A DNA stretch of 32,000 nucleotides from Phormidium lacuna HE10JO (GCA_943370025.1 CALRPI020000018.1:561-32560), one strand, 5' to 3'. Positions 7,896 through 27,473 are shown, counted from the stretch's first letter. The notes: generated by a model not told the origin, from the letters alone. Translations and numbers: made by a program.

Positions 7896-8026
7896 AGGAT
7901 TTTTGATATTTTGATTTCTCGTTTGCGGTCATGTACCTTGAGGGCGCAAAGCCTTGTGCCCGTAAAATTGGCTGTACCTTATTGACTTAAGAACTGAAAT
8001 TAAGAACAACTAAACTTTTTTTACTT

Positions 8027-8779
8027 CTATTCATGCTCTTCTTGACTGCCTAAGTAAACTTCAATAACCTTGGGATCATTTTGCACTTCCTCGAAGTTTC
8101 CTTCACAGAGGACTGTTCCCTCATGGAGAACTGTCACCTTCCTTGCTATTTGGCGGACAAATTCCATGTCATGTTCAATAACTACGATCGAGTGACTTTC
8201 CGCTAGAGCTAACAATAAACTGCCCACATTTTCGGTTTCTTCATCGGTCAACCCAGCCACCGGTTCATCTACTAGTAATAAATCCGGAGATTGTGCCACT
8301 AACATGCCAATTTCTAGGCGCTGCTTTTCTCCGTGGGAGAGCAATGCTGCCTGCATATCAACTTTGGCAGTTAAACCAACGGTTTCTAGTAAGCCCCCAA
8401 TAGTCTGTTTTTCTTGGCTAGGAACCTTACCAAATAGGGTAGAGAAAACATTTTTATTACGGTTACAAGCAATCTCAAAATTTTCTCTCGTGGTCAGGTT
8501 GAGATAGATCCTTGGAGTTTGAAACTTCCGCCCAATGCCTAAGAGAGCTACTTGATGTTCTGAGAATTTTCTTAAATCTTGCCCCTTAAAGGAAACCTTG
8601 CCGATCGTCGGCTTAACTTTCCCCGTGATGGTATCCAAAAAGGTAGTTTTTCCGGCTCCATTGGGACCAATAATTACCCGTAGTTCTCCGGGTTCCATGC
8701 TGAAGTTAAGATTATTCAGAGCTTTAAAACCATCAAAACTTACTGTAAGATTATCAATTTCTAAGATTTTATCTGCCAT
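8027..8779 (-). CDS. urtD: Urea ABC transporter ATP-binding protein UrtD
   Basis: It has Walker A GPNGAGKT, signature LSHGEKQ and Walker B LLLVDEP. Its position in the operon fits UrtD. Confidence 0.9.
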   Translation of the reverse strand: MADKILEIDNLTVSFDGFKALNNLNFSMEPGELRVIIGPNGAGKTTFLDTITGKVKPTIGKVSFKGQDLRKFSEHQVALLGIGRKFQTPRIYLNLTTRENFEIACNRNKNVFSTLFGKVPSQEKQTIGGLLETVGLTAKVDMQAALLSHGEKQRLEIGMLVAQSPDLLLVDEPVAGLTDEETENVGSLLLALAESHSIVVIEHDMEFVRQIARKVTVLHEGTVLCEGNFEEVQNDPKVIEVYLGSQEEHE

Positions 8780-8850
8780 GGAGTTAATAATTTGGGGGTA
8801 AAAATATCCTGCACAATAGTCAAAGTATTCGCACTAGCTCTAGGGTTAAC

Positions 8851-10002
8851 CTACTTACTTAAGGTCTCTTTTTCCATCTGGATTTCTGGGTCTGTTTCTA
8901 AGCTAGGATAGGTGGCAATTTTCTTGCCGCCGAGGAGTTTTTGGACTTGAGCTAAACCCTCAGTTCGGAGCCAACCAACCAAGCCATCGGGCAACACCGT
9001 CACCACAATTAGGAATAATGCTCCTTGGAAAAATAGCCAAATATCGGGAAATTGTTCACTCAACAAACTCTTGCCAAAATTAACTACCAAAGTCCCTAAA
9101 ATTGCCCCCACTAAGCTGGCTCTACCCCCCACAGCAACCCAGATCACCATTTCAATAGAAAAAGCAATATCCATCGCCTTAGGAGAAATCAAACCCGTTT
9201 GCACCGTAAACATTGCCCCTGATAATCCAGCAAGAGCAGCAGAAATGCCAAATACTAACACCTTAAATCCCGTAGGGTTATAGCCCGAAAACCTCACCCG
9301 GCTCTCGTCATCTCGAATTGCCACGAGTAGTTTGCCAAATCGGCCACTGGTTAACCAACGGCACAGGGCATAAGTCCCAGCTAAAACGACGATCGTTAGG
9401 GTATAAAAGACAAACTGGGTTTGGGGATCACTAACTGATACGCCGAGGATGGTTTTGAAGTTGGTTAAACCGTTGGTGCCATTGAATAGCTTTTGTTGCC
9501 CGTTGAAGAAGTTGAAAAAGACGATCGTCGCCGCTTGGGTGAGAATCGAGAAATATACACCCCGAATCCGGTTCCTGAATACTAAATAACCCAATACTGA
9601 TCCAAGAATCAAAGGGAACAAAAGAACTGCGATCGCACTAAACCCAAAACTACTAAAGGGTTGCCAGAAAAATGGCAATTCTGTACCTCCGTAGAGGTTC
9701 ATAAATTCGGGCATTTTTCCCGGTTCTAGGGGGGCCAACTGAAGATGCATGGCGATCGCATAGCCTCCCAAGGCAAAAAATACCCCATGACCTAAACTTA
9801 ATAACCCCGTGTAGCCCCAGATCAGATCAATAGCTAGGGCAGCGATCGCCAGTGCCAGAAATCTCCCCAGTAAGTTCAGCCGGAACCCCTGCACAAACAG
9901 AGGCACAAGCAAAATCAGAACGAGGGCAACTCCCACCACAATCCCTACTTCCAACAACAATTTATTCCCAGATTTTTCCTTCAGTCTACTAGCCAGATTC
10001 AT
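8851..10002 (-). CDS. urtC: Urea ABC transporter permease UrtC
   Basis: It is a branched-chain-type (LivM-like) permease positioned between urtB and urtD. Confidence 0.9.
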   Translation of the reverse strand: MNLASRLKEKSGNKLLLEVGIVVGVALVLILLVPLFVQGFRLNLLGRFLALAIAALAIDLIWGYTGLLSLGHGVFFALGGYAIAMHLQLAPLEPGKMPEFMNLYGGTELPFFWQPFSSFGFSAIAVLLFPLILGSVLGYLVFRNRIRGVYFSILTQAATIVFFNFFNGQQKLFNGTNGLTNFKTILGVSVSDPQTQFVFYTLTIVVLAGTYALCRWLTSGRFGKLLVAIRDDESRVRFSGYNPTGFKVLVFGISAALAGLSGAMFTVQTGLISPKAMDIAFSIEMVIWVAVGGRASLVGAILGTLVVNFGKSLLSEQFPDIWLFFQGALFLIVVTVLPDGLVGWLRTEGLAQVQKLLGGKKIATYPSLETDPEIQMEKETLSK

Positions 10003-10191
10003 CGCTATAACTCCCCCTTTAATCAGTTATCAGTTATCAGTTAGCAATTTTAGCAATTAGCAGTTATCAGTTATTTTTGTTAGAGGTCATTTATAAAGTG
10101 GCTAGAGGGTTTAATTTTTCGTCCCCTCCGGGGACAAAAAATCTGATTTTATAAATAGTTTCTTAACTGTTAACTGGTAACTGTTCACTGT
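10003..10191. repeat. Foldback spacer between urtB and urtC
   Basis: From left to right it contains a CAGTTAT heptamer array (10021-10076), the 26-nt box copy b (10079-10104, reverse strand) and the hairpin GTCCCC-tcc-GGGGAC (10120-10134). These are followed by a degenerate forward box (about 10146-10166) and a TAACTGT heptamer array (10164-10191). The left and right halves are imperfect reverse complements. The last heptamer abuts the urtB stop codon. Confidence 0.6.
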
Positions 10192-11361
10192 CTATGCGTC
10201 CACAGTCCGACCCTTCTGGGGGAAGATGCCCCCTGGACGGAATTGTAGGAAGCTAATAATTAAGAAAAATACCATCACCTTTGCCATACTGGCGGTGGCA
10301 AAGAAGGTAAAGAAATCGGCTAGGGGTTTGATGGGTTGGACGAGGAGGGCGATCGTTCCTGAACCGACAAAGTAGTTGAGGGTGCCAATGGCGATCGCCG
10401 CTACCACACTACCCGCCAGCTTGCCCACACCGCCAACCACCACCACCATAAAAGTATCTACCACGTAGTTTTGCCCCGTATTAGGTCCCACAGAACCCAA
10501 GAGACTAATTGCACAACCAGCAATTCCGGCTAAACCTGAGCCGAGGGCAAAGGTGAGAGAATCGACCTGTTGGGTAGGTATTCCTAGGCAAGCACTCATG
10601 GTGCGGTTTTGGGTGACAGACCTGATTCTTAAGCCCCACCGGGATTTTTGTAAGAATAGATAAATCCCCAGCATACAGGCAGCAGTCAGAAAAATAATGA
10701 ATAGGCGAGCGTAGGGAATTTGAAAAGTGCCGAAGACCTTCACCCCGCCCCGGAGCCAAGCTGGAGCCGTCACATCGACGTTTTGCGCCCCAAACCAAGG
10801 TTTTGTCACCGTCAGTTTGAAAGTTTGAGCGAGAATAAAACCTGTAGCACCGCTAATCCCTAGACAGACTGGGAGCATGATTGACCAGACGATGGTTTTA
10901 ATGCGATCGTAATCTGCCCGCTTAGAAATAAACCATAATCCGCCAAAAAATAAGGTAGAAAAGATAACTAAACCAATAAGAATTACACCATTCAAACTGC
11001 GAACAAACTGTTGCAGAATCAGACTGACACCCCAAGTTGCCAAAAGAGTTTCGAGGGGACGACCGTAGAGGTAGCGAATTACGCCTCGTTCGAGGAGAAT
11101 CCCAAACCCCGCCGTCAAGAAAAAAGCTACGGGCAAGGCAAAAATGATATAAGTATCTGACCAAGGACTGCCAAAGGTTTTGAAGATATTTTGCACCACA
11201 AAAGTAGTGTAAGCCCCCAGCATCATAAATTCGCCATGAGCCATATTAATTACGCCCATCAGCCCAAAGACGATCGCCAAACCTAGGGCTGCTATAAGCA
11301 ATACAGCACCAATACTAACACCATTAAATAAGCCTTCCAATAATCCTTGAACAATCAGCAC
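10192..11361 (-). CDS. urtB: Urea ABC transporter permease UrtB
   Basis: It is a LivH-like permease with an N-terminus (LEGLFNGVSIGAVLLIAALGLAIVFGLMGVINMAHGEFMMLGAY) typical of UrtB. The start codon is GTG. Confidence 0.9.
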   Translation of the reverse strand: MLIVQGLLEGLFNGVSIGAVLLIAALGLAIVFGLMGVINMAHGEFMMLGAYTTFVVQNIFKTFGSPWSDTYIIFALPVAFFLTAGFGILLERGVIRYLYGRPLETLLATWGVSLILQQFVRSLNGVILIGLVIFSTLFFGGLWFISKRADYDRIKTIVWSIMLPVCLGISGATGFILAQTFKLTVTKPWFGAQNVDVTAPAWLRGGVKVFGTFQIPYARLFIIFLTAACMLGIYLFLQKSRWGLRIRSVTQNRTMSACLGIPTQQVDSLTFALGSGLAGIAGCAISLLGSVGPNTGQNYVVDTFMVVVVGGVGKLAGSVVAAIAIGTLNYFVGSGTIALLVQPIKPLADFFTFFATASMAKVMVFFLIISFLQFRPGGIFPQKGRTVDA

Positions 11362-11400
11362 TATCTTCTCCTAATAGCTAGTTTTTTAGGCATGGAATTA

Positions 11401-11433
11401 AGAATAATGCCGCGCAATGCGCGGCATTATTCT
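11401..11433. repeat. Perfect 15-bp-stem palindrome AGAATAATGCCGCGC-aat-GCGCGGCATTATTCT between urtA and urtB
   Basis: It is exactly self-complementary. It starts (on the coding strand) 8 nt after the urtA stop. It shares the core CCGCGC-NAT-GCGCGG with the palindrome at 27441-27473. Confidence 0.6.
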
Positions 11434-11440
11434 TGACTAA

Positions 11441-12787
11441 TTAGGTCTTGTACTTGCCACCCTTCTTAGAATCAGACCAGTCGCAGGCAAAGCCCTTGGT
11501 TTCAGTTACGAATTGATTCCAAGGAATGGGGACTACTGGTTGAGGAGTAGCTTGGACAATCTCAAATAGACCATCTTGGCGGATTTGACCGATGCGGACA
11601 ATCTTGGAGATATGGTGATTTGGATTCATGGTTACCATGCCGCCGGGAGCATCGAAGGTAACACCGTAGGCAGCAGCCCGAACTTTTTCTAGATCGTCAG
11701 CGGTCTTAGCTTTTTCTACGGCAGCCTTCCAGAGATAAACGGCGATGTAAGCGGCTTCCATGGGGTCGTTGGTGACTCGATCGTTACCATATTTCTTTTT
11801 AAAAGCATCAACAAACTTCTTGTTAGCAGGGCTTTCCACGGTCATGAAGTAGTTCCAAGCAGCGTAGTGACCCTTGAGGAATTCCACGCCGATCGCTTTC
11901 ACTTCTTCTTCAGCAATACTCACAGACATAACTGGATACTTGTCTGCGGTTAGTCCTGCTCCCTGCATTTGCTTAAAGAAAGCCACATTGCTATCGCCAT
12001 TGAGGGTGTTATAGATGACACCACCGTTGGGCAGAGCGGCTTTGATTTTGGTAATGATTGCGGTAACTTCAGTGTTGCCTAGGGGAAGATAATCCTCGCC
12101 CACGGTCTTACCACCCTTAGCGTCTAATTGAGCTTTGATGATGGTGTTGGCAGTTCTAGGGAATACGTAGTCAGAACCAACTAGGAAAAATTCCTTGCCT
12201 TTCTTTTCTAGCAACCAATCTACAGAAGGCTCGATTTGTTGGTTAGGAGCAGCTCCGGTGTAGAAGATATTCTGGGAACATTCTTGACCTTCGTACTGCA
12301 CGGGGTACCAAAGCATATGTTTTTTCTCTTCAAATACTGGCAACACTGCTTTCCGGCTAGCAGAAGTCCAGCAACCAAAGACCACAGCCACTTTGTCTTG
12401 GTCGATTAATTTCTTGGATTTCTCGGCAAAAGTGGGCCAATCAGATGCCCCATCTTCCACAACTGCCTCAATCTTTTTGCCGAGAACACCACCAGCAGCG
12501 TTAATTTCTTCGATCGCTAGCTGTTCAGCATCTACTACACTTTTTTCACTAATTGCCATCGTGCCACTCAAGGAGTGGAGAATGCCGACTTTGATTGTGC
12601 CACCGCCGCCTGCTGCGGGAGATGCTGCGGGGGAGCCTGCGGGAGATGCTGCGGGTGAACCTGTAGGGGATGCCGCTGGGCTACTACTTGCTGTGGGAGA
12701 ACCACCACAGGCTTTCAGAAAAATACTTGTACCTACGGTAGCACCACCGTAAAGTAAAAATTTGCGTCTATTAATGCGCTTTGACAT
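11441..12787 (-). CDS. urtA: Urea ABC transporter substrate-binding lipoprotein UrtA
   Basis: The motif [17 protein letters not shown] is typical of UrtA. The N-terminus has a twin-arginine-like RRKFL, a lipobox (LKAC) and a Pro/Ala/Ser repeat linker. Confidence 0.92.
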
Positions 12788-13675: not shown

Positions 13676-15184
13676 ATGTATTGTGACTACCTCGAACGCA
13701 TCCTCACGGCTCGTGTCTATGATGTTGCCCAAGAAACTCCCCTAGAATATGCCCCTAATCTTTCCACCCGCCTTGAGAATAAATTGCTCCTGAAGCGGGA
13801 AGATATGCAATCGGTATTTTCCTTCAAGTTGCGGGGGGCTTATAACAAGATGGCTCAGTTGCCCCCGGATCTATTGGCACAAGGAGTTATTGCTGCTTCG
13901 GCGGGGAACCATGCCCAAGGCGTGGCTTTGGCAGCCAGTCGGCTGGGGACACGATCGATCATTGTCATGCCCGTCACTACCCCAGAGGTGAAGGTGAATG
14001 CGGTCAAAGCAAGGGGAGCAGAAGTAGTCCTCTACGGGAATACCTACGATGATGCCTATACCCATGCCCGCCAGTTGGAGCAGGAGAAAAACTTGACATT
14101 TATTCATCCCTTTGATGATCCCGATGTGATTGCCGGGCAGGGGACGATCGGGATGGAGATTCTCCGCCAGTGTCAGCAGCCGATCCATGCGGTTTTTGTG
14201 GCGATCGGCGGTGGGGGCTTAATCTCTGGGATCGCTGCCTATATCAAGAGATTACGCCCGGAAGTGAAAATTATTGGTGTGGAACCAGTGGATGCGGCGG
14301 CGATGTATCAATCTTTGGCGGCAGGCAAGCGGGTTCGTTTACCCCAAGTGGGTTTATTTGCCGATGGAGTGGCAGTACGAGAAGTAGGAGTAGAGACTTT
14401 CCGTTTGTGTCAGCAGTACGTGGATGAAATTATTTTGGTGGATACCGATGATACCTGTGCGGCTATTAAAGATGTGTTTGAAGATACTCGATCGATCCTT
14501 GAACCGGCTGGGGCATTGGCGATCGCTGGGGCAAAAGCCTACGTGGAACGGGAACAGATCACCGGAAAAACCCTAGTGGCGATCGCCTGTGGCGCAAATA
14601 TGAATTTCGATCGCCTCAGATTCGTCGCTGAACGAGCTGAACTGGGGGAACGGCGGGAGGCGATATTTGCTGTGAATATTCCTGAATCGCCGGGCAGTCT
14701 GCGGAGATTTTGTGATTGCTTGGGCGATCGCAATCTAACCGAATTTAGCTATCGGATTGCCGATTCCCAAGCGGCACATATTTTTGTCGGCTTGCAAATC
14801 AAAAACCGAGCTGATGCCGCCCAGATGGTGCAAGGCTTCGAGTCCTGTGGATTTAAAACTATTGATCTCACGGATGATGAACTCACTAAACTCCATCTCC
14901 GTCACATGGTGGGGGGGCGATCGCCTTTGGCACATAATGAATTGCTCTATCGGTTTGAGTTTCCAGAGCGACCGGGGGCTTTGCGGTTGTTTGTCAATTC
15001 CATGAGTCCCAACTGGAATATTAGTTTATTTCACTATCGGAACCACGGCGCAGACTACGGCAGGATAGTGGTGGGAACCCAAGTCCCGCCCCAAGAAATG
15101 GCAGATTGGCAAGCCTTTCTAGATACCCTCGGCTATCAATACTGGGATGAGAGTCAGAATCTGGCTTATAAGCTATTTCTTTAA
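13676..15184 (+). CDS. ilvA: Biosynthetic threonine ammonia-lyase (threonine dehydratase) IlvA
   Basis: It has the PLP-lysine motif (SFKLRGAYN) and a glycine loop (GGGGLISG). Two C-terminal ACT-like regulatory repeats are present, and the 502-aa length is typical of IlvA. Confidence 0.92.
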   Translation: MYCDYLERILTARVYDVAQETPLEYAPNLSTRLENKLLLKREDMQSVFSFKLRGAYNKMAQLPPDLLAQGVIAASAGNHAQGVALAASRLGTRSIIVMPVTTPEVKVNAVKARGAEVVLYGNTYDDAYTHARQLEQEKNLTFIHPFDDPDVIAGQGTIGMEILRQCQQPIHAVFVAIGGGGLISGIAAYIKRLRPEVKIIGVEPVDAAAMYQSLAAGKRVRLPQVGLFADGVAVREVGVETFRLCQQYVDEIILVDTDDTCAAIKDVFEDTRSILEPAGALAIAGAKAYVEREQITGKTLVAIACGANMNFDRLRFVAERAELGERREAIFAVNIPESPGSLRRFCDCLGDRNLTEFSYRIADSQAAHIFVGLQIKNRADAAQMVQGFESCGFKTIDLTDDELTKLHLRHMVGGRSPLAHNELLYRFEFPERPGALRLFVNSMSPNWNISLFHYRNHGADYGRIVVGTQVPPQEMADWQAFLDTLGYQYWDESQNLAYKLFL

Positions 15185-16849: not shown

Positions 16850-17158
16850 TTAGACCGTCGCTACCCGACTATTTAACCACCGCTGAAACGATTTTTGACT
16901 TTCTCCCGATGGTTGCCCAAGAATCAGGTTTTTGAGGCTAATATCTTCATCAAGCTGATTCCAATGGATTCCGCTATCGCCAGCAATGAAGCGATAGTCG
17001 TTACGTTCTTCTACTGAGCCATGCAAGAGGCTAGGATACCATGCTAATGGCACAGATATGGTACGCCCATCAGATAAATCCATAGAGATGGTATCATCAG
17101 TGACGGTCACTTGCTGAATTTTGGCTATTTCAAGCAGTTCAATCGTTAAAGAATTCAT
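16850..17158 (-). CDS. DUF2442 domain protein
   Basis: The pattern ISVPLAWYPSLLHGSVEERNDYRFIAGDSGIHWNQLDEDISLKNLILG matches the DUF2442 pattern (W-P-L...R...I...G..I.W..LD.DIS), from memory. Confidence 0.75.
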   Translation of the reverse strand: MNSLTIELLEIAKIQQVTVTDDTISMDLSDGRTISVPLAWYPSLLHGSVEERNDYRFIAGDSGIHWNQLDEDISLKNLILGQPSGESQKSFQRWLNSRVATV

Positions 17159-17313: not shown

Positions 17314-17814
17314 TCAGATAATGGTTGGATAGGTGATTACATCATGCCATGTCCAGGGCTGTAATGCTAATCCTGCTCGCTGGGCTGCTGTTGTCTTAAA
17401 CCGACTATGCCGCCAAATCCAGTTAAAGTAATTCACTACTAATCGAGCCGTCACCTTCGTTTGCTCCCATACTTTGCCAAACTTGTTCTGCCTACGATGC
17501 CAACGCCCAGTTTGCTGCCTGACAATGCCGTTAGTTCGCTCTAATCTTTGCGTCTTGTCTTTGCCGATGTAGTGGAGAATTTCAGGCGGTAAGACCCGTT
17601 CGTAACCTCCCCAATCATCGCTATTCCATTGCTTGCACTCTGTCTTTCCTTCCGTACTGACCACCAACTCCTCAATCAACTCATCGGTATGTTTGCCAAC
17701 TCTTGCAGCTAAAATCAATCCACTGGAATTCGCCAAACTCACCCCAATCCAGCAATCCCCCACCTCTAATTCTCCTGGGAGACATTGCTTTTGTTTTTTT
17801 CCACAAATGACCAC
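17314..17814 (-). CDS. IS1-family transposase, catalytic (InsB-like) frame, expressed by -1 frameshift from the InsA frame
   Basis: DDE-type motifs are present: DELWSFV (in the upstream frame), NSDDWGGY and RLERTNGIVRQ. The frames overlap at GAAAAAAAC, seen as a T7 run at 17794-17800 on the plus strand. Confidence 0.8.
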   Translation of the reverse strand: MVICGKKQKQCLPGELEVGDCWIGVSLANSSGLILAARVGKHTDELIEELVVSTEGKTECKQWNSDDWGGYERVLPPEILHYIGKDKTQRLERTNGIVRQQTGRWHRRQNKFGKVWEQTKVTARLVVNYFNWIWRHSRFKTTAAQRAGLALQPWTWHDVITYPTII

Positions 17815-18143
17815 AATTCATCCGCACTCACTTCTTCTGTTTGTACCGCTTGCATCTGAGCATTATGAACGAGTTGAGCTTGCTGACTGGCGGCACGAAT
17901 AAGGCTCACCACCGTATTATAGGCAAGCCCACTGGTGCGGCTAATACCTCGCAGACTGCTGCCCTCACTATGAGCCTGTAAAACTTGCCGGATTTGTTCT
18001 TCACTTACATGGCGGTGATAATACATTGTGTCAAACCGTTCATTGAACGTTTGCTGGCAATGGGGGCTGAAGTAGCGTTGGCTTCCGTTCGGGGCTTTGC
18101 CGTGTTTATGAGTGCTAAGATAACCACAGAGCTTACATTCCAT
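17766..18143 (-). CDS. IS1-family InsA-like DNA-binding protein (zinc-finger/HTH)
   Basis: It has an N-terminal C-x2-C and an HTH region (SLRGISRTSGLAYNTVVSLI). The second zinc-finger half is degenerate (SPHC). It ends just after the slippery site. Confidence 0.8.
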   Translation of the reverse strand: MECKLCGYLSTHKHGKAPNGSQRYFSPHCQQTFNERFDTMYYHRHVSEEQIRQVLQAHSEGSSLRGISRTSGLAYNTVVSLIRAASQQAQLVHNAQMQAVQTEEVSADELWSFVEKNKSNVSQEN

Positions 18144-18474
18144 AGATTCAACCTGTGATTCGTTGATACTCTATCTTATCAGACCCACCTCTTTTTGATG
18201 CATGACCAACTGCATTAAGCGATCGGGCGTGACAGGCGGATGGCTGGTTCCTATATCTTGCTGCATCGACTTTGCTCCTTTAGTTTTACCACTTCAATTT
18301 TACGGCATTATTCCTATACTATAACTGCTCCACCCTTGGGTGCTTTCGGACTTAGCGATCGATCCAAAGTGCAAGTGCAAAGGCTTTGTATGCAGCCAGC
18401 TAACGACTCAAATCAGCAGTGGCAGATAATCTTTGAAACCCTCATAACGGCTTTCATCCACTGCATTTGAATTG

Positions 18475-19803
18475 TCATGTGTTTAGTAAAGTCAATTGTT
18501 TTGGCTGAAATGGCTCGTCAGATACTAAAGAATTCACGCTTAGATCAACTTTTGCATCAATACTGTTTAATAAAGCAACCATACTGCGACCAACCGCAAA
18601 AGCCAAATTCACAGGTACAGCATTACCAATTTGCTTATATTGACTACTCACAGAACCTGAAAACAGCCATTCATCTGGAAATGTCTGCACCCTAGCATAC
18701 TCCCTAATTTTTAAGGGTCTTGTCTCTTCTGGATGACATCTTTCTGTTTGTTTCTGAGCAGGAGAACAGGTGAGAGTTAAACTTGGCTCATCCCATGAAA
18801 GCCGACGTGCCATCCCAGTTTTCCCTCCACCTAAAAAATAACTACCTTGCATGTATTCTCTTTGAAGATCATCAGGTAAATCTCTCCAGTAACCACCCGG
18901 AGGAACAAAAGATAATATTTCTCTTTTCCTTTTTGGATAAGTCTGTCCCTCTGATGAGGGCACATCAGTATCATACAATTCACCAGATTTTAAAGCATCT
19001 TTTAAAGTTAATATTTTGTAATACTTTGATGGCCATTTAAATGTTGAAAATCGAACTAAATCGTTTCTAATCCCAACCAGAAATAAACGTTCTCTTTTTT
19101 GAGGCACGTGGTAAAATAATGCTTTTAAAACCTTTGGCTCAATCAGCGTATATCCTAAATCCGAAATGATAGACCTGATCACGGATAAAGTTTTTCCATC
19201 ATCATGATTTAGTAAACCACGTACATTTTCCCCAAGAAAAACTTTTGGCCTAACTGTTTTTATGGCTCTAGAAAATTCAAAAAACAATGTGCCTCTAGTA
19301 TCTTCAAACCCTAATTTCTCACCTGCATAAGAAAATGCCTGACAAGGAAATCCACCAGAAATAAGGTCGATATCATTAAATTCCGTAAAGTCCACATTTT
19401 TTATATCACCTTGAATGACATTCCATCTAGGTCGATTAGTCCGCAAAGTCTTACAGGCATCTTTATCAATTTCACTCAGGGCAACAGCACTAAATCCAGC
19501 TTTCTCTAGCCCCAGAGCAAGCCCACCTGCACCTGCAAAAAGTTCGATAGATGAAAATCCTCTTACAGCTTTTATATTTAGCTCTTGATTCCAATCGGTC
19601 TTAATCATATCTCTTACTTCTTCAAACTGAATTAGTTGAGATATTGTATATTCTTTTTTATTTGTAACTGGATTTTGTACAGAAATCAGCTTCCCACTTT
19701 TTTCCCACTTCAATAATGTAGCTTTGGAGACGGAGACTATATCTGCGAGTAATTCTGCTGAAATTGTCATTTTATCAAACATTGAAATCTTCAAATCCTT
19801 CAT
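18475..19803 (-). CDS. DNA (cytosine-5)-methyltransferase with an N-terminal MerR/excisionase-type HTH extension
   Basis: C5-MTase motifs are present: I FAGAGG, IV GGFPCQAFS, VI GENVRGL, VIII QKRERLFLVG and X GNAVPVNLA. About 80 aa of N-terminal HTH precede them (ISAELLADIVSVSKATLLKWEKSGKL). Alternative starts lie at 19782 and 19770. Confidence 0.92.
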   Translation of the reverse strand: MKDLKISMFDKMTISAELLADIVSVSKATLLKWEKSGKLISVQNPVTNKKEYTISQLIQFEEVRDMIKTDWNQELNIKAVRGFSSIELFAGAGGLALGLEKAGFSAVALSEIDKDACKTLRTNRPRWNVIQGDIKNVDFTEFNDIDLISGGFPCQAFSYAGEKLGFEDTRGTLFFEFSRAIKTVRPKVFLGENVRGLLNHDDGKTLSVIRSIISDLGYTLIEPKVLKALFYHVPQKRERLFLVGIRNDLVRFSTFKWPSKYYKILTLKDALKSGELYDTDVPSSEGQTYPKRKREILSFVPPGGYWRDLPDDLQREYMQGSYFLGGGKTGMARRLSWDEPSLTLTCSPAQKQTERCHPEETRPLKIREYARVQTFPDEWLFSGSVSSQYKQIGNAVPVNLAFAVGRSMVALLNSIDAKVDLSVNSLVSDEPFQPKQLTLLNT

Positions 19804-20644
19804 AGTTCTTGAAAGAAAGTAAGTAAATACTTTTCAATAAATTAGGATCAATATCCTTTAGTTCTCTAAATACAGAGTTTGACTCTGCTTCAATATCACT
19901 GCTATCTACAATATCTTGGATTATCAAAGGCAATTTTTCGCATAGTTTCTTGAATGCAAACTTGCTGCCGGTCACTAATTCATAAAACCTATCAATAGAA
20001 ACGCGACGTATTCTTTCATTTGATACACTTTGGCCGTCTAAGCTCACCCTCCACACGATATTTTGGCTTCTTTTCGCAATCACTTCTACCAGCATACATG
20101 TTGCCTGTGGATTTGACAGCAAGGTATTTTGCATTCTCATGTAAGTCTTTTGGGCAGATGATGAATTCATGGTGTTATGTTTGTTTTTTATCTCAACATA
20201 ATACATAAGCGCGGTATTTACTACGTCATATCCTTGCGCTGGTACTATCCATTCATCACTCAGGTATCGAAAGATATTTTGATGAAAATAGCCGATGTGA
20301 TTTGTGTTAGATTTATCTATTTGCCTAAGAACTTCACTCTCTATCACAAATTCGATGCTCTTACGATAAACTTTTGCATCGAATGTCAATTTAATTGGGT
20401 CTAATAAATTCTTATTGAACTCAGCTAAGTCAATGCGAAATCTGTATTTCCTTACAGTCTCTTTGACATGATGATAGATATTTTCGTTACTTATAAAGCC
20501 AAGATTATAATCTCTCATCTTTCCTTTTGGATACAATTGATCTTGCACCTGAATTTTGACAAATAAATATGGATTAGACGGAGATTTTTTGTCTAATCTG
20601 ACCACAAGGTATATAGTCTGAATGTCAAGTTTCTGACTAATCAC
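19775..20644 (-). CDS. Candidate type II restriction endonuclease partner of the C5 methyltransferase
   Basis: It lies directly upstream of the MTase gene and overlaps or abuts it. A PD-(D/E)xK-like arrangement, GYD...VEIKNK, is present. The stretch EIKNKHNTMN reminds me of Eco47II/Sau96I-type enzymes, but this is unverified. Confidence 0.55.
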   Translation of the reverse strand: MISQKLDIQTIYLVVRLDKKSPSNPYLFVKIQVQDQLYPKGKMRDYNLGFISNENIYHHVKETVRKYRFRIDLAEFNKNLLDPIKLTFDAKVYRKSIEFVIESEVLRQIDKSNTNHIGYFHQNIFRYLSDEWIVPAQGYDVVNTALMYYVEIKNKHNTMNSSSAQKTYMRMQNTLLSNPQATCMLVEVIAKRSQNIVWRVSLDGQSVSNERIRRVSIDRFYELVTGSKFAFKKLCEKLPLIIQDIVDSSDIEAESNSVFRELKDIDPNLLKSIYLLSFKNYEGFEDFNV

Positions 20645-22327: not shown

Positions 22328-23200
22328 TTAGGATTGAGCTATGTATTCTAGACATTTTTGCATTTGCTGCACCATGGTAGCTCGATCGCCATGAAATCTC
22401 CTGCCGTGACCGGGAAGTACCCACTCAAAATCATAGGCGGCTAACTTTGCCATAGATTTTCCCAGCTCTGCCCAGGAATACCAGCAGGCATCCCGAAAGG
22501 CATAGAGTTGTTGTAGTCGTTCTGAATATGCTAAATGATCGCCTGAAAATAGAAATTTATTTCGGTAAAGCAGTACCGTATGTCCCTTGGTGTGACCGGG
22601 GACGGGAATGATTAATAAATCTGGGGCTAACTCGTAGGGGTCTGTACCTTGGAGTTTAATTTCGACTGCTTGGGTTCCAGAGGTAATATCATCTTGGTGC
22701 AGGAGGCGATCGCATTGGAAATGCTCATGAAATTTGGCATGATCCGCCACATCATCCCGGTGAGTCAGATAAAGATAACGCACCCCACCCAAAGCTTCTA
22801 GACGCTTGACCAAGGGCGGTGCAAACCGGGGCGAATCTACTAAAATATTCCCCTCTGGTCGCTGAATAAAATAGCTGGCTGCTCCAAAGGAATTTTCGGC
22901 ATGGTAGCCACAGTGATAGACATTTTCGGCAACTAATAGGGGAAATTGAGCCTGAACATCTTTGATATCTTGAGGTTTTTCTACCGTGCCGATCGAAGCT
23001 GTGGGGCAGGAGAGGAGAGCTTGCATTGCCCGATGCCGGCTAGCAGTATCCGTGGGTTGTTGATATACCGCCGATTGTCCCTGCTGGCGATCGAACACTT
23101 CCGCCGCCATCCACCGACAAGTATCACAATCAATGCAGGTACTATCAACAAAAAAATCACCACTAATATTCTCAGCTCGGCGCTGTTGGAGTTTTGCCAT
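22328..23200 (-). CDS. MBL-fold metallo-hydrolase with an N-terminal ferredoxin-like Cys cluster
   Basis: The N-terminus reads FFVDSTCIDCDTCRWMA. MBL-type motifs are LTHRDDVADH and PVPGHTKGH...SGDH. The gene ends 2 nt before the GNAT start. Confidence 0.8.
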   Translation of the reverse strand: MAKLQQRRAENISGDFFVDSTCIDCDTCRWMAAEVFDRQQGQSAVYQQPTDTASRHRAMQALLSCPTASIGTVEKPQDIKDVQAQFPLLVAENVYHCGYHAENSFGAASYFIQRPEGNILVDSPRFAPPLVKRLEALGGVRYLYLTHRDDVADHAKFHEHFQCDRLLHQDDITSGTQAVEIKLQGTDPYELAPDLLIIPVPGHTKGHTVLLYRNKFLFSGDHLAYSERLQQLYAFRDACWYSWAELGKSMAKLAAYDFEWVLPGHGRRFHGDRATMVQQMQKCLEYIAQS

Positions 23201-23581: not shown

Positions 23582-26170
23582 CTATTTACTTAATTGTATT
23601 TGCTGTTTTACTTGTAAAGCTACTTGAGCTTGGACAAACGGACTATAGATGGGTATCTCCGAATTAATACTCTCAAAACTAGCAGTTAAAGCATAAGGTA
23701 CTTGAGTAGTCGGATCGTTATTCCAGCCTTTATGAGCTACAACTGCTATGCAGAAAGCATCACGCAAATCAAAGGATTTTACAATTGCCCAATCTTTCTG
23801 GACTGTTCCATTTCCTCTAGATGTATTCTTAACACGACTCCCATGATTTTTGTTTTTTCCAAGAGTCCAGTCAAATAAACCTGAGCCATCTTCTTGTTCT
23901 TCAGAAGCCTCATATTTATCAAGAATTTTTTTTAGAAATTTATCTGGAGATTCTCCTTTTTGACTGCATTCCCAATGTAACCAAGTAGATAAATATTTGC
24001 GTTTACTACGCCTTGTTCGGCGTGGCTCAGCTTTGTAGGCAAGTGTAATTTCAACCAGAATATCAAAATCCTCTGCTGGTGATTGCAAAGCTTCAGGAAT
24101 TACTACTTGATAGATATCTGCTTGTTTAGCTTTGATGTAAGTATCACCACTAGTAATTAATGTCACACGATTAGGAGCATTACCAATTGCGCGATCAAGA
24201 TTAGGTAAACCGTAGCCCATCATCCGAATAATTGGTGAGAGGTCTGATTCATTGTTTGTCCATGTAGGCAATCTTGCTGATTGAACAATCAAGGCTTTAT
24301 AAAGCAAACAGCTTTCCTGTGGAAAATTAGCAGCTAATGCGGCGGCAATATAGGTAACTTTAGATGCTGCAAACGATGTCCCCACAGCGTCTGATGAGAT
24401 CGCTGGTGTTCCGCCCATTGTTGTCCTCACTAGTTCAGGACAAACCTCGTTATTAGTTGTAAAACTAGGTGGATCGCCTTCATCTTTAATAAAGTCACCA
24501 CCATATTCCACAACTTCTGGTTTAATCGAATCCCAGATACCATAACCAGTGCAAGAAAATGATGATGGATGATCTTTAGATGCAATTGAAGTTAGTGGTG
24601 GTTGATGATAAGTAATATGAGCAATTGAGCCAACTGTAAGGGCTTGAAAACTTTGAGCAGGATCGGCAACACGAGATGACTTTTCTAACAAATAACTTGG
24701 ATATGGACAGTCATCTTGAAAATGCTCTGTGAGTGTTTTTCGAGTTATGCTAAGCCCTAAGCCACGATTTAATGATAGATTTCCAGCAGAAACAACAAAA
24801 AGAATATCATTTAGCCAGCAAAGGTTATCTATTTCCGCAGCCCAAGCACTCATATAAGTTGTTCGACAAGGACTAGAGCTATTAATGGAATGATTAAAGA
24901 TACGAGTACCTCTTTGGTGATAGAAGTCTACAATTTTTTTAAGGACTTCAGGCATATAGAGATTTAATCTACAATCACCTCCTAATACCCTAGCATTTTG
25001 AAGCCAGCAGATTGCTGATTGACTAGCTTTAGGAATTCCTTGAGGGTATAAAATTGCTCCTGCAACTCTTGTCCCATGCCCTCCACCTTTTACATAATCT
25101 GCCGTTAGATCTATCTCATGAGGAACCCAAGATCGTGAATTATTGCTATCCATAGCAACACGTAATAAAGGATGGCTTTCTTGAATACCGCTATCGATAA
25201 TGCAGACTTTTGGGGCTATTGGCGATGGAGGTTCAAGAGTAAAAGCAGATTCCTGAATACTTGAAGTCCGATTAGCTAAGATTTCTGAAATTTGATCGGG
25301 TTCACTAATTTCAAAAACATATGGATAGTTAGTTGCTAAATCTTTTAAAGCTTTGCCAGAGATTTCAACGCGACAGGAGAAACTATCTGGTAAAAGAGCA
25401 AGGCGAGAACGATCATCATATGAGGCTTCTTGTAAAATAGTTCCGCTAATGTCTGAGATAAATTTTTCAAATTCTAATTGTCTGTTCCACTGTAGATCAT
25501 CCCATTCTTGGAGAGTCTGATCACGTTTGTCAGTCCATTTAGCAACTCTAAGTGCATATTTTGCAGAATCTTCATTTTCGTTTTGAGAAGGATGTAGAGA
25601 AAATTTTGGATTTAGTCCGACACAAGCAATACTGACATCAACTGTATAAATTTGATCGTCTAGAATTTGATCCCATCGCTTAAGCAGATCGGGAGATAAA
25701 ATATATTCCAAACGTTTAAAATTGCCTTCAAGAATTTCCCATATTTCAGCAACTTTGCCACCACCATATTGTTCAAAAATAAATTTTTCAATTTTTTGTT
25801 GCAATTTAGTTAACTCAGCATCAGTATCAGCCGCCGTACCAAGGATGTAACCATCCTCAATCTCTAGGATAACCTCAATTCCAAAGCTTTTGAGATCGTC
25901 TGCATCAAATGATTTGGGATCTATTTTTAATATAAATGATGGAATATTGGGAATTTCTGGCAACCCTTCTTGCTGACGTTCTTCAAATCTAGTTTTCCAA
26001 TCACTCATAATTGTGAACACAGAAGACTGGAGCCTGCGACCATGATTACCTGCATCCCCATGATTGTTAGTAGAACGGCTTGATCGTCGAGGTGGAGTTC
26101 CAGAACGGGCAAAATCTGTAAGTGTGAGTCTTAATGGAATATGCTTAAACTGTTGAGAGCTATCAGACAT
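23582..26170 (-). CDS. Large cytoplasmic S8 (subtilisin-family) serine peptidase, IetS-like
   Basis: The catalytic triad is in D-H-S order: VCIIDSG (D326), GGGHGTRVAG (H365) and GTSFAASKV (S599, codon at 24374-24376). There is no signal peptide. About 315 aa of the N-terminus and about 180 aa of the C-terminus are unassigned. Confidence 0.9.
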   Translation of the reverse strand: MSDSSQQFKHIPLRLTLTDFARSGTPPRRSSRSTNNHGDAGNHGRRLQSSVFTIMSDWKTRFEERQQEGLPEIPNIPSFILKIDPKSFDADDLKSFGIEVILEIEDGYILGTAADTDAELTKLQQKIEKFIFEQYGGGKVAEIWEILEGNFKRLEYILSPDLLKRWDQILDDQIYTVDVSIACVGLNPKFSLHPSQNENEDSAKYALRVAKWTDKRDQTLQEWDDLQWNRQLEFEKFISDISGTILQEASYDDRSRLALLPDSFSCRVEISGKALKDLATNYPYVFEISEPDQISEILANRTSSIQESAFTLEPPSPIAPKVCIIDSGIQESHPLLRVAMDSNNSRSWVPHEIDLTADYVKGGGHGTRVAGAILYPQGIPKASQSAICWLQNARVLGGDCRLNLYMPEVLKKIVDFYHQRGTRIFNHSINSSSPCRTTYMSAWAAEIDNLCWLNDILFVVSAGNLSLNRGLGLSITRKTLTEHFQDDCPYPSYLLEKSSRVADPAQSFQALTVGSIAHITYHQPPLTSIASKDHPSSFSCTGYGIWDSIKPEVVEYGGDFIKDEGDPPSFTTNNEVCPELVRTTMGGTPAISSDAVGTSFAASKVTYIAAALAANFPQESCLLYKALIVQSARLPTWTNNESDLSPIIRMMGYGLPNLDRAIGNAPNRVTLITSGDTYIKAKQADIYQVVIPEALQSPAEDFDILVEITLAYKAEPRRTRRSKRKYLSTWLHWECSQKGESPDKFLKKILDKYEASEEQEDGSGLFDWTLGKNKNHGSRVKNTSRGNGTVQKDWAIVKSFDLRDAFCIAVVAHKGWNNDPTTQVPYALTASFESINSEIPIYSPFVQAQVALQVKQQIQLSK

Positions 26171-27209
26171 GAGCAGTTACAATATCCTGTATTGATTCTT
26201 CTAAATGTTCTTGAATAACAAGCTCTTCTCGATCTAGAATTGCCCGTTTGGCTGCATCTTGAGCAACTCGCACAACCTGAGCCGCCGAGAAACCATTCAT
26301 TTTTTGTACAATTAAGTTCCAATCAATTGAACCAACTGCAACAGAACATAAAGTTTGCTTTAATATTGCCCTAACTTCTAATTCTGTTGGCTTTGGCACT
26401 TCAATAGCATCGTCAAATCTTCGCCACACGGCTTCATCTAAGAACTTAGTTAAGTTAGTAGCAGCTACCAGTAAACCATTTGAAACTTCATATTCATCAA
26501 GGAGTTGTAGAAAAGTATTAACTACACGTTTTATTTCACCAACCTCCTGATTATCCTCACGCGACTTGGCAAGAGCATCACATTCATCAATGAAGAGTAA
26601 ACAAGGAGTTGCCGCCGCAGTTTCAAAGACTTCACGTAAATTTGTAGCAGTTTCGCCTAAAAAGGAAGATACCATTGCATCAAAACGAATTTTAATCAAA
26701 GTTAAGCCCGTATTCCAAGCAATTCTCTCTGCTCCCATAGTCTTACCGCAGCCAGGGGAACCGTAAAGTAATATTTTTTGGCGATAACGCAAACCATGAT
26801 GAGCAAGGCGATCACGAGCAGCATATTCCCGTTCGATCCGACGAAATCTAGTTTCCATAGCATCGGAAAGAACCATGTGATGCCGTAAGCGATCGCGAGG
26901 AACAGTAACAATAAAAGGGTGATTGAATCGGTGTTTACTTGATAATAGAGTTAATGAGCGAGGATCAGAATTTTTAGGTACTGCAAAATTAGAAGTTGAT
27001 AAACTTCTGCCATCATGATCTATTCCCGATGAAGTTTCTAACTTGCTAAGATGATTACTTTTTTGAACAATGTTTTCAAGCTGTTCAGCAAGATTAGTAT
27101 GCCCTTGCTTCCGTTCTTCTTCAACAACTATAGACAACATACCTTGTATTGCCTGCGAATCTTGGCTGGCAACAGCTCGAAATAATCGCTTGAGTACATC
27201 TCCTTTCAT
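26163..27209 (-). CDS. Classical AAA+ ATPase, IetA-like
   Basis: It has Walker A GSPGCGKT (150-157), Walker B LLFIDECD (204-211), sensor-1 VAATN and RRFD arginines. Its stop overlaps the peptidase start (ATGTCTGA). Confidence 0.9.
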   Translation of the reverse strand: MKGDVLKRLFRAVASQDSQAIQGMLSIVVEEERKQGHTNLAEQLENIVQKSNHLSKLETSSGIDHDGRSLSTSNFAVPKNSDPRSLTLLSSKHRFNHPFIVTVPRDRLRHHMVLSDAMETRFRRIEREYAARDRLAHHGLRYRQKILLYGSPGCGKTMGAERIAWNTGLTLIKIRFDAMVSSFLGETATNLREVFETAAATPCLLFIDECDALAKSREDNQEVGEIKRVVNTFLQLLDEYEVSNGLLVAATNLTKFLDEAVWRRFDDAIEVPKPTELEVRAILKQTLCSVAVGSIDWNLIVQKMNGFSAAQVVRVAQDAAKRAILDREELVIQEHLEESIQDIVTAHV

Positions 27210-27440: not shown

Positions 27441-27473
27441 AAAGATGTCCCGCGCGATGCGCGGGACATCTTT
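27441..27473. repeat. Perfect 15-bp-stem palindrome AAAGATGTCCCGCGC-gat-GCGCGGGACATCTTT
   Basis: It is exactly self-complementary. It lies 31 nt upstream of the psbQ ATG, in the divergent spacer shared with the AAA+ gene. Its core is shared with 11401-11433. Confidence 0.6.

What the first reader, a model, noticed from the sequence alone, without database searches (positions are those of the whole stretch)
23582..27209. Translationally coupled AAA+ ATPase -> 862-aa cytoplasmic S8 subtilase operon (IetAS-like candidate defence module)
Two minus-strand genes overlap by 8 nt (ATGTCTGA at 26163-26170). The 348-aa upstream product has complete classical-AAA motifs: GSPGCGKT, LLFIDECD, VAATN and RRFD. 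About 140 aa of its N-terminus are unassigned. The downstream product has an intact subtilase triad (D326, H365, S599) but no signal peptide. Its catalytic core spans only about residues 320-680. The ~315 N-terminal residues and the ~180 C-terminal residues (with a polybasic patch EPRRTRRSKRKY) match nothing I recognise. From memory, an AAA ATPase plus an S8 protease is the gene content of the ietAS anti-phage system (Gao et al. 2020), whose trigger and mechanism are unknown. ATPase-gated proteases are also a recurrent theme in predicted NTP-dependent conflict systems. The locus is HIP1-poor (1 copy in about 4 kb) and locally AT-rich, and it sits between ordinary metabolic genes. This is consistent with horizontal acquisition.
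Basis: partly seen in the sequence, partly recalled or inferred. Interest (0 to 1): 0.8.

Follow-up and report, generated by a model that had tools for sequence, protein, structure and literature searches.

The report
Cyanobacterial IetAS ATPase–protease defence pair

Summary
Two minus-strand genes overlap by 8 nt: a 348-aa AAA+ ATPase at 26163-27209 and an 862-aa S8 protease at 23582-26170. The interpretation also holds. PADLOC IetA and IetS profiles match at E = 2e-79 and 2.5e-53. Both scores are higher than those of the founding Agrobacterium pTi pair. An IetA gene lies directly upstream of IetS in 79 of 80 related cyanobacterial loci. It also does in three distant relatives that sit among GmrSD, McrBC, PLD/HNH and SNF2 genes. 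The N-terminal ~300 residues are the Pfam Y4kK_N region, with two beta-alpha-beta-beta-alpha-beta units placed where a subtilisin propeptide would sit. The C-terminal ~200 residues form a beta-jelly-roll carrying an invariant polybasic loop. The model has pLDDT 91.9. By family genetics, IetS is the toxin and effector and IetA is the ATP-dependent antitoxin. Phage input is thought to trigger abortive infection, but the biochemical mechanism is still unknown. The pair fails NCBI's strict IteA/IteS equivalog cut-offs, so it is a divergent subfamily. Evidence for horizontal acquisition is partial: a GC dip and plasmid-borne relatives support it, but the HIP1 depletion is not significant.

The parts
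26163..27209 (-). ietA: 348-aa single-module classical-clade AAA+ ATPase (antitoxin/regulator)
   Evidence: ORF. PADLOC IetA PDLC02196 E = 2e-79, covering residues 6-340. Pfam AAA 146-272 plus AAA_lid_3. 41% identical to pTi IetA over 112-340. Best solved relatives are p97/Cdc48 D2, E = 1.8e-52.
26877..27209 (-). IetA N-terminal region (residues 1-111): conserved helix 1-50, then a variable linker at about 50-95
   Evidence: Conservation profile over 73 cyanobacterial orthologues. The region is covered by the PADLOC IetA profile. A role as adaptor or partner-binding domain is inferred, not shown.
26739..26762 (-). Walker A GSPGCGKT (K156)
   Evidence: Read directly. At least 95% conserved.
26652..26666 (-). 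Pore loop 1, SFLGE (residues 182-186)
   Evidence: Conserved as SS[FY]LGET in orthologues. This is the aromatic-hydrophobic-Gly motif of substrate-threading classical AAA proteins (established knowledge).
26163..26170 (-). 8-nt start/stop overlap ATGTCTGA (likely translational coupling)
   Evidence: Twenty cyanobacterial loci show an abutting or overlapping junction by tblastn offset. The annotated pair overlaps by 8 nt on Synechocystis plasmid pSYLC and on the Dongshaea plasmid, and by 23 nt on the Klebsiella plasmid. Coupling itself is inferred.
23582..26170 (-). ietS: 862-aa cytoplasmic S8 subtilase (toxin/effector)
   Evidence: ORF. PADLOC IetS PDLC02198 E = 2.5e-53, covering residues 305-855. 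Pfam Peptidase_S8 320-638. 26% identical to pTi IetS over 307-845. AlphaFold2 model pLDDT 91.9, pTM 0.94.
25271..26170 (-). IetS N-terminal regulatory region (residues 1-~300; Pfam PF27160 Y4kK_N type). It comprises a conserved tail with H10, a long helix with N36 and H43, and two beta-alpha-beta-beta-alpha-beta units (78-147 and 174-289).
   Evidence: Secondary structure of the confident model. The region occurs only at the N-terminus of ~830-900-aa S8 proteins, in 303 clusters. PF27160 label. No match in the local Pfam copy or the PDB by sequence. Segment 263-292 is the most conserved part of the protein, 0.81 mean pairwise identity.
24185..25213 (-). S8 catalytic domain (residues 320-662) with D326, H365, N464 and S599
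   Evidence: hhalign to subtilisin BPN' E = 1.9e-10. Foldseek to subtilisins E ~1e-13.
23585..24184 (-). C-terminal eight-strand beta-sandwich (jelly-roll-like) domain, residues 663-862
   Evidence: Model strands 668-834. The best fold matches are subtilases that carry such a C-domain: ProN-Tk-SP 3afg and KP-43 1wmd. Weak jelly-roll capsid hits. Covered by the IetS profile and aligned with pTi IetS.
23993..24028 (-). Polybasic loop EPRRTRRSKRKY (residues 715-726)
   Evidence: P716 is invariant and R717, R718, T719 and R720 are at least 90% conserved across 76 sequences. The loop is confidently modelled between strands 703-712 and 729-735. Partly conserved in pTi IetS. Function unknown.

Best explanation
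The locus is an intact two-gene IetAS module (also written Gao_Iet, IteAS or SgiAT-type) in a cyanobacterial chromosome, probably a Pseudanabaena-like organism.

ietA encodes a single-ring classical AAA+ unfoldase-type ATPase. ietS is translated from an overlapping start and encodes a cytoplasmic subtilase with three parts:
- an N-terminal Y4kK_N-type regulatory region, whose last beta-alpha-beta-beta-alpha-beta unit sits directly before the catalytic domain, where a subtilisin propeptide would be;
- an S8 catalytic domain with a complete triad;
- a C-terminal beta-jelly-roll with an invariant polybasic loop.

What is shown here: family membership, intact catalytic motifs, gene order and overlap, tight co-inheritance, purifying selection, and defence-island context of distant relatives.

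What is taken from published work on other family members: IetS is toxic on its own, IetA neutralises it, the protease activity is needed for defence, the pair protects against phage by abortive infection, and at least one system is switched on by a single phage protein.

What is inferred: IetA hexamers use ATP and their pore loops to keep IetS inactive, most simply by engaging its conserved N-terminal region. A phage-derived cue then titrates or blocks IetA or releases the N-terminal region. Freed IetS cleaves essential cytoplasmic proteins, which stops the cell before the phage completes. The same addiction logic would also stabilise the DNA segment that carries the pair.
For: Family membership:
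- PADLOC IetA 265.7 bits and IetS 179.2 bits. The founding pTi proteins score 239 and 85.6 bits on the same models.
- BLASTP to pTi IetA 41% identity (E = 2e-49) and to pTi IetS 26% identity (E = 4e-23).

Co-inheritance and context:
- IetA lies directly upstream on the same strand in 79 of 80 genome loci.
- It also does in three distant relatives that lie among GmrSD, DUF4391+SNF2, McrBC, PLD+HNH and NERD-kinase genes.
- There is no conserved third gene.
- Close relatives are on plasmids: 72.5% identity on Synechocystis PCC 6714 pSYLC. In all, 430 plasmid records match, including Ti plasmids and Klebsiella plasmids.

Intact genes:
- Catalytic and ATPase motifs, including pore loop 1, are intact.
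- IetA is closest to the threading unfoldases p97/Cdc48, PAN and FtsH.
- dN/dS is 0.04-0.20.

Architecture:
- The model is confident: pLDDT 91.9, pTM 0.94.
- The best fold matches are pro-forms or multi-domain subtilases: ProN-Tk-SP 3afg, KP-43, unautoprocessed pro-subtilisin E 3whi and PCSK9.

Literature:
- Toxin and antitoxin roles (PMC5006074; PMC13069673 citing Yamamoto 2009).
- Abortive infection and the YosG trigger (bioRxiv 10.1101/2022.08.27.505566).
- Requirement for protease activity and failure to clone ietA mutants (PMC13069673).
Against: - No experiment exists for this pair or for any cyanobacterial member.
- Both proteins score far below NCBI's equivalog cut-offs (IteA 231 against 510; IteS 99.8 against 900). 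Function is therefore extrapolated across about 25-40% identity.
- The step 'IetA acts on the IetS N-terminal region' is pure inference. No complex could be modelled, and model coordinates could not be inspected.
- The propeptide analogy rests on secondary-structure topology and on Foldseek alignment lengths and TM-scores only. Pfam Inhibitor_I9 does not match.
- In the window the pair is not in an obvious defence island. Its immediate neighbours are CyanoQ and a ferredoxin-MBL hydrolase, and an R-M pair lies 3 kb away.
- In 24 other cyanobacteria the pair sits in a conserved fabF-tkt-ietA-ietS position and IetA is as conserved as transketolase. That is unusual for a mobile defence gene.
Confidence: 0.85

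Rival explanations
1. It is only an addiction (post-segregational killing) module. It stabilises the low-GC segment or a former plasmid or island and has no role against phage in this organism.
For: The family was discovered as a plasmid-stability and incompatibility determinant and as the SGI1 maintenance system (PMC5006074; PMC13069673 ref. 61). Close relatives are on cyanobacterial plasmids and 430 plasmid records carry relatives. The window copy has a lower GC than its flanks.
Against: Family members protect against phage, and one is triggered by a phage protein (bioRxiv 10.1101/2022.08.27.505566; PMC13069673). Distant relatives of this subfamily sit among restriction and defence genes. 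The two roles are not mutually exclusive.
Confidence: 0.2
2. It is a resident regulated-proteolysis system with a physiological role, such as stress- or development-linked protein processing, in which the AAA+ partner gates a cytoplasmic protease. On this reading it is not an immune or selfish module.
For: The fabF-tkt-ietA-ietS order is shared by 24 of 80 loci across Nostocales, Coleofasciculus, Lyngbya, Microseira and Trichodesmium. In that set IetA identity tracks transketolase identity: 75-95% against 73-90%. Selection is strongly purifying.
Against: The window's own clade is not in that position. It is found on plasmids and at non-syntenic sites. The subfamily is patchily distributed and lies in defence islands outside cyanobacteria. 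IetS diverges much faster than IetA (61-91%), which fits conflict genes. All tested relatives behave as toxin-antitoxin pairs.
Confidence: 0.07
3. The mechanism is reversed. IetS is a self-inhibited zymogen, and IetA is its activator: a AAA+ unfoldase that strips or unfolds the propeptide-like N-terminal region when a phage cue arrives. IetA would then not be a constitutive antitoxin.
For: The N-terminal units occupy the propeptide position, and segment 263-292 is the most conserved part of IetS. IetA has an intact threading pore loop. The extreme N-terminus of IetS carries a conserved motif that could serve as a handle.
Against: In three studied relatives the protease alone is toxic and the ATPase relieves toxicity. 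ietA mutants could not be cloned (PMC5006074; PMC13069673). Both findings are the opposite of what an obligatory activator predicts.
Confidence: 0.1
4. It is an ordinary secreted subtilase with a co-encoded chaperone-like ATPase.
For: S8 proteases are usually extracellular. The best fold matches are secreted enzymes.
Against: There is no signal peptide or hydrophobic segment. The specific IetA and IetS profile matches and the strict pairing with a cytoplasmic AAA+ protein also argue against it.
Confidence: 0.01

Closest known systems
ietAS of Agrobacterium Ti plasmid pTiC58 (founding member; Yamamoto et al. 2009, cited in PMC13069673 and PMC5006074)
   Same: Same gene order, with the AAA+ gene followed by an ~840-aa S8 protease. 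IetA is 41% identical over the AAA module. IetS aligns from the S8 domain through the C-terminal domain, residues 307-845, including the EP..R..RR..Y..S loop. The N-terminal motifs PHxxL (~residue 10) and DRxxH[GA] (~residue 40) are shared. Both match the same PADLOC models.
   Different: IetS is only 26% identical. The N-terminal region is barely alignable (hhalign E = 0.0047, probability 7.5%) and is about 30-40 residues longer in the window protein. The pTi genes are separated by 3 nt, not overlapped. The window copy is chromosomal in a cyanobacterium, not on a conjugative plasmid.
SgiAT (S026/S025) of Salmonella Genomic Island 1 (PMC5006074)
   Same: An AAA-ATPase antitoxin with a subtilisin-like toxin, carried on an integrated element.
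   Different: It was tested experimentally as a toxin-antitoxin pair; the window pair was not. Sequence relatedness to the window pair was not measured here.
Anti-phage ietAS (Gao et al. 2020; B. cereus m1293 system triggered by SPbeta YosG, bioRxiv 10.1101/2022.08.27.505566); NCBIfam IteA/IteS equivalogs
   Same: Same two-protein architecture. The NCBIfam IteA and IteS models are the best NCBIfam hits for both proteins.
   Different: Scores are far below the equivalog cut-offs: 231 against 510 and 99.8 against 900. This is a different subfamily. The trigger and phage range are unknown for the window pair.
ietHAS (Liu-DS4; PMC13069673)
   Same: It contains an ietA-ietS core.
   Different: It requires an SNF2-family helicase, IetH. 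No helicase gene lies next to the window pair. SNF2 genes do lie beside two distant relatives.
Pro-subtilisins with C-terminal beta-domains (ProN-Tk-SP 3afg, KP-43 1wmd, pro-subtilisin E 3whi)
   Same: Best structural matches. The layout is the same: an N-terminal alpha/beta unit, then the S8 core, then a beta-jelly-roll.
   Different: Those enzymes are secreted and autoprocess an I9 propeptide. IetS is cytoplasmic. Its N-terminal region is about 300 residues with two units and long helices. It has no I9 sequence signal. It is controlled by a separate AAA+ protein.

Membership tests
IetAS (Gao_Iet / IteAS / SgiAT-type) two-gene system | AAA+ ATPase that matches IetA family profiles over most of its length | tested here: met
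   PADLOC PDLC02196 E = 2e-79, 265.7 bits, residues 6-340. This is higher than founder pTi IetA, 239 bits.
IetAS (Gao_Iet / IteAS / SgiAT-type) two-gene system | S8 serine protease that matches IetS family profiles, including the C-terminal domain | tested here: met
   PADLOC PDLC02198 E = 2.5e-53, 179.2 bits, residues 305-855. Founder pTi IetS scores 85.6 bits on the same model.
IetAS (Gao_Iet / IteAS / SgiAT-type) two-gene system | ietA immediately upstream of ietS on the same strand, inherited together | tested here: met
   8-nt overlap. 79 of 80 related loci keep the pair, as do three distant relatives. Same order in pTi, Dongshaea, Klebsiella and Synechocystis plasmids.
IetAS (Gao_Iet / IteAS / SgiAT-type) two-gene system | Intact ATPase motifs and protease catalytic residues | tested here: met
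   K156, D208/E209, N252 and R263/R264 in IetA; D326, H365, N464 and S599 in IetS.
IetAS (Gao_Iet / IteAS / SgiAT-type) two-gene system | Cytoplasmic protease (no export signal) | tested here: met
   No hydrophobic N-terminus or transmembrane segment by hydropathy. No dedicated signal-peptide predictor was available.
IetAS (Gao_Iet / IteAS / SgiAT-type) two-gene system | Protease is toxic and the ATPase neutralises it | not testable with these tools
   Known only for pTiC58, SGI1 and E. coli relatives (PMC5006074, PMC13069673).
IetAS (Gao_Iet / IteAS / SgiAT-type) two-gene system | Protects against phage (abortive infection) | not testable with these tools
   Known for other members (bioRxiv 10.1101/2022.08.27.505566; PMC13069673). 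The defence-island context of distant relatives is indirect support.
NCBIfam equivalogs IteA_antiphage (NF042959) / IteS_antiphage (NF042956) | Score at or above the curated equivalog cut-off | tested here: not met
   IteA 231.2 bits against cut-off 510; IteS 99.8 bits against cut-off 900. The pair is not filed as an equivalog of the tested pair, only as a member of the wider family.
ietHAS three-gene variant | SNF2-family helicase gene in the operon | tested here: not met
   The neighbours are CyanoQ and a ferredoxin-MBL hydrolase. There is no helicase within the locus.
Classical-clade AAA+ unfoldases | Walker A/B, aromatic-hydrophobic-Gly pore loop 1, sensor-1 Asn, and second-region-of-homology arginines | tested here: met
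   GSPGCGKT, LLFIDECD, SFLGE, VAATN and WRRFD, all conserved in 73 orthologues. Best solved relatives are p97/Cdc48 D2. Hexamer formation and threading were not tested.
Subtilases with an I9-type N-terminal propeptide | Sequence match to Inhibitor_I9 or pro-subtilisin propeptide | tested here: not met
   No Pfam hit other than Peptidase_S8 at E <= 10. hhalign to pro-subtilisin BPN' aligns the catalytic domain only.
Subtilases with an I9-type N-terminal propeptide | beta-alpha-beta-beta-alpha-beta unit packed on the catalytic domain in the propeptide position | tested here: inconclusive

The most novel reading that the evidence does not exclude
The family-wide N-terminal (Y4kK_N) region of IetS may be a retained, uncleaved propeptide-like lock on a cytoplasmic subtilase. 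IetA would then be a AAA+ machine that works directly on that lock through the conserved N-terminal tail. That would make the system an ATP-driven zymogen switch, a control principle not described for subtilases or for bacterial immunity. The fast-evolving parts of the N-region (helix 201-262 and linker 293-319), and its tandem duplication in some homologues, would be where phage cues are read.
Probability: 0.2. Interest if true: 0.6.

Novelty: new member of a known kind. Interest (0 to 1): 0.28.

Why it matters
The call itself is routine: a known defence/toxin-antitoxin family found in a cyanobacterial genome. It has some value because the biochemical mechanism of IetAS is still unknown as of 2026 (PMC13069673). 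This subfamily is large, with 303 clusters at 50% identity, and it models with high confidence. That yields testable ideas:
- a propeptide-like N-terminal region,
- an invariant polybasic loop on the C-terminal jelly-roll,
- a threading-competent ATPase.

It also adds to the sparse picture of abortive-infection systems in cyanobacteria.

Tried and rejected
- The first AlphaFold2 run used 22 close homologues and gave pLDDT 50, with an unfolded S8 core. It was discarded. A 76-sequence alignment fixed the problem.
- Model coordinates are not exposed, so contacts between the N-region and the active site could not be read.
- hhalign of unit 1 against unit 2 found no sequence-level repeat.
- A profile of the N-region found nothing in the PDB (best E = 0.39, a ribosomal protein) and no family in the local Pfam copy.
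- hhalign of the family against pro-subtilisin BPN' aligned only the catalytic domain.
- No flanking direct repeats, tRNA gene or Rfam element delimits an island.
- Promoter- and terminator-like sites are no more frequent than in shuffled sequence.
- The empty-site test was inconclusive. In the nearest relatives (89-90% identical ferredoxin-MBL gene) the upstream side is PhoX+Uma2, so the whole neighbourhood differs and there is no clean insertion site.
- Phage genomes hold only three weak partial matches.
- Viral fold hits are generic S8 or jelly-roll proteins.
- Literature searches for a mechanistic or structural IetAS paper found none. Yamamoto 2009 is not held. Nothing was found on y4kK/y4kL.

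Full report
**Observation**

The window holds two minus-strand ORFs, 26163-27209 (348 aa) and 23582-26170 (862 aa). Their junction reads cATGTCTGA on the coding strand. The start of the second gene and the stop of the first therefore share 8 nt.

In the ATPase these are GSPGCGKT 150-157 (K156), LLFIDECD 204-211, VAATN 248-252 and RRFD 263-266. In the protease they are D326, H365, S599 and the polybasic stretch 715-726.

Neither protein has a hydrophobic N-terminus or a membrane segment. Pfam gives AAA 146-272 and Peptidase_S8 320-638. Orthologues conserve both N-termini, which supports the start codons. dN/dS is 0.20 for ietS and 0.04-0.11 for ietA, so these are real, constrained genes.

GC falls to 0.37-0.41 across the pair, against 0.46-0.51 on either side. 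The single HIP1 site compares with about 3.0 expected, and P(<=1) = 0.20, so that argument is weak.

**What it is**

The PADLOC IetA and IetS profiles match both proteins: IetA at E = 2e-79 over residues 6-340, IetS at E = 2.5e-53 over residues 305-855. As a calibration, the founding Agrobacterium Ti-plasmid proteins were fetched and scanned. They score lower on the same models, 239 and 85.6 bits against 265.7 and 179.2.

Direct BLASTP gives 41% identity for IetA over the AAA module. For IetS it gives 26% identity from the S8 domain through the C-terminal domain. NCBIfam's IteA and IteS equivalog models are the best NCBIfam hits, but the scores lie far below the curated cut-offs: 231 against 510, and 99.8 against 900. 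The pair therefore belongs to the wider family and is a subfamily distinct from the experimentally tested equivalogs.

**Co-conservation and context**

A search with IetS found 1976 homologues. The closest are all cyanobacterial. Eighty genome loci were fetched. In 79 of them an IetA gene lies directly upstream on the same strand. The only exception has 87 nt of upstream sequence before the contig ends.

There are two junction geometries: an overlapping or abutting junction, as here, and a gap of about 40 nt. No third gene is conserved.

Three distant members share only 29-35% identity in the N-region. They also have the AAA gene upstream. They lie among GmrSD, DUF4391+SNF2, McrBC, PLD+HNH, SMC-like and NERD-kinase genes, which are typical defence islands.

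Relatives occur on 430 plasmid records. One is a 72.5%-identical copy on Synechocystis PCC 6714 plasmid pSYLC. Others are on Ti plasmids and Klebsiella plasmids.

In the window itself the neighbours are ordinary. On one side are CyanoQ, an alpha/beta hydrolase, DUF1800 and DUF1501. On the other are a ferredoxin-MBL hydrolase, GNAT and LysR. An Eco47II-type restriction-modification pair with IS1 remnants lies 3 kb away. The nearest relatives of the flanking ferredoxin-MBL gene have a different upstream neighbourhood. The position is therefore variable, but no clean empty site was found.

**Anatomy of IetA**

IetA has a conserved N-terminal helix (1-50), a variable linker (about 50-95) and a fully conserved AAA module that includes the pore loop. 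Its closest solved relatives are substrate-threading machines such as p97/Cdc48 D2 (E = 1.8e-52); by family profile it also resembles PAN and FtsH.

**Anatomy of IetS**

A first IetS model from 22 close sequences failed. A 76-sequence alignment gave pLDDT 91.9 and pTM 0.94.

- The N-terminal ~300 residues contain a short strand, a long helix carrying the near-invariant N36 and H43, and two beta-alpha-beta-beta-alpha-beta units (78-147 and 174-289).
- A lower-confidence linker (290-320) follows. It is the least conserved segment of the protein.
- The S8 core spans 321-662.
- An eight-strand beta-sandwich spans 668-835. Its 715-726 polybasic loop is confidently placed and almost invariant.

**The 'unassigned' regions**

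The N-region occurs in 303 clusters at 50% identity. It is always at the N-terminus of ~830-900-aa S8 proteins, including planctomycete ones. Many homologues carry the newer Pfam family PF27160, labelled Y4kK_N; y4kK is, from my own recollection, a gene of a rhizobial symbiotic plasmid. The local Pfam copy lacks that family, and the N-region matches nothing else in Pfam or in the PDB by sequence.

Against the pTi IetS N-terminus the profile gives only a weak hit (E = 0.0047, probability 7.5%). However, the motifs PHxxL near residue 10 and DRxxH[GA] near residue 40 are shared with the Agrobacterium and Klebsiella proteins. The C-terminal domain is covered by the IetS profiles and aligns with pTi IetS. 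Both regions are therefore family-typical.

**How it most likely works**

In the studied relatives the protease is the toxin and the ATPase is the antitoxin (PMC5006074; PMC13069673, citing Yamamoto 2009). Protease activity is needed for defence, and ietA mutants cannot be cloned (PMC13069673). The B. cereus system aborts infection and is switched on by the SPbeta protein YosG (bioRxiv 10.1101/2022.08.27.505566). As of April 2026 the anti-phage mechanism was still described as unknown (PMC13069673). No structural or mechanistic paper was found.

From the anatomy I infer three steps. An IetA hexamer uses ATP and its pore loops to hold IetS inactive, most simply through the conserved IetS N-terminal region. 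A phage cue lifts this restraint. Free IetS then cleaves cytoplasmic proteins and stops the cell. Only family membership, motif integrity, pairing and context are shown here. The rest is extrapolated or inferred.

**Rivals**

- A pure addiction role is compatible with the plasmid history of the family and is not exclusive of defence.
- A housekeeping role gains some support from a fabF-tkt-ietA-ietS arrangement shared by 24 loci across several cyanobacterial orders. In that set IetA is as conserved as transketolase. The window's clade is not in that position, however, and IetS evolves much faster than IetA.
- An 'IetA activates a zymogen' model fits the structure but contradicts the published genetics.
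- A secreted protease is excluded by the lack of any export signal.

**Verdict**

The locus is a new member, in a divergent cyanobacterial subfamily, of a known system. Given the profile hits and the gene order, standard defence-finder pipelines should call it. Its residual interest lies in the unsolved mechanism of the family and in the hypotheses the confident model suggests.

Noticed in passing
window 17314-20644: An Eco47II-type restriction endonuclease (19775-20644, -) overlaps a C5 cytosine methyltransferase (18475-19803, -) by 29 nt. GC is 0.34-0.38, the lowest in the window. Next to them are IS1 transposase fragments (17314-18143) and a DUF2442 gene (16850-17158). No HIP1 site occurs between 14925 and 21037. 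This is a second acquired defence/mobile islet 3 kb from ietAS. One study reports that ietAS co-localises with type III R-M in E. coli (bioRxiv 10.1101/2022.08.21.504612).
   Followed up: partly
window 27441-27473: A perfect 15-bp inverted repeat, AAAGATGTCCCGCGC / GCGCGGGACATCTTT, with a 3-nt spacer. It lies in the divergent region between ietA (start 27209) and the called start of the CyanoQ gene (about 27504). It could be an operator or a hairpin.
   Followed up: no
P0037, P0052, P0089 (alignment A1): Some cyanobacterial IetS homologues (Phormidium, Microcoleus) are 1060-1140 aa long because the ~270-residue N-terminal region is tandemly duplicated.
   Followed up: partly
L009, L013, L014, L017, L021, L025, L027, L042, L047, L050, L071, L079 and 12 more: The gene order fabF-tkt-ietA-ietS is conserved across Nostocales, Coleofasciculus, Lyngbya, Microseira and Trichodesmium. 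In this set IetA identity (75-95%) tracks transketolase identity (73-90%), while IetS diverges faster (61-91%). For example, Plectonema IetA is 94.6% identical to the Nostoc reference but its IetS is only 60.9% identical.
   Followed up: partly
L089:1699-4893(-), L090:1-3009(-): Large SNF2-family helicase genes lie directly beside, and divergent from, distant ietAS pairs. This recalls the helicase-dependent ietHAS variant (PMC13069673). The window pair has none.
   Followed up: no
L083 (Synechocystis sp. PCC 6714 plasmid pSYLC): A 72.5%-identical ietAS pair with the same overlapping layout sits on a 41-kb plasmid. Nearby are a DNA cytosine methyltransferase, an Rpn-family nuclease and DUF87/ATP-binding genes.
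   Followed up: partly
L084:8893-9837 compared with window 22328-22424: In the nearest relative a BrnT-type toxin pair and an aspartic-protease-like gene are inserted between the ferredoxin-MBL and GNAT genes. Those two genes overlap in the window. Both sides of the ferredoxin-MBL gene therefore seem to be variable spots.
   Followed up: no
L030:5396-7967; L031:644-1788: In Hormoscilla GUM202 the 3' part of ietA is present twice. In a Stigonema MAG ietA is split into two pieces. These may be rearranged or decaying copies.
   Followed up: no
window 7197-12787: A five-gene branched-chain amino acid/urea-type ABC transporter cluster: two ATPases, two permeases and a Peripla_BP_5 binding protein. 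Threonine dehydratase lies at 13676-15184. These are ordinary metabolic context.
   Followed up: no
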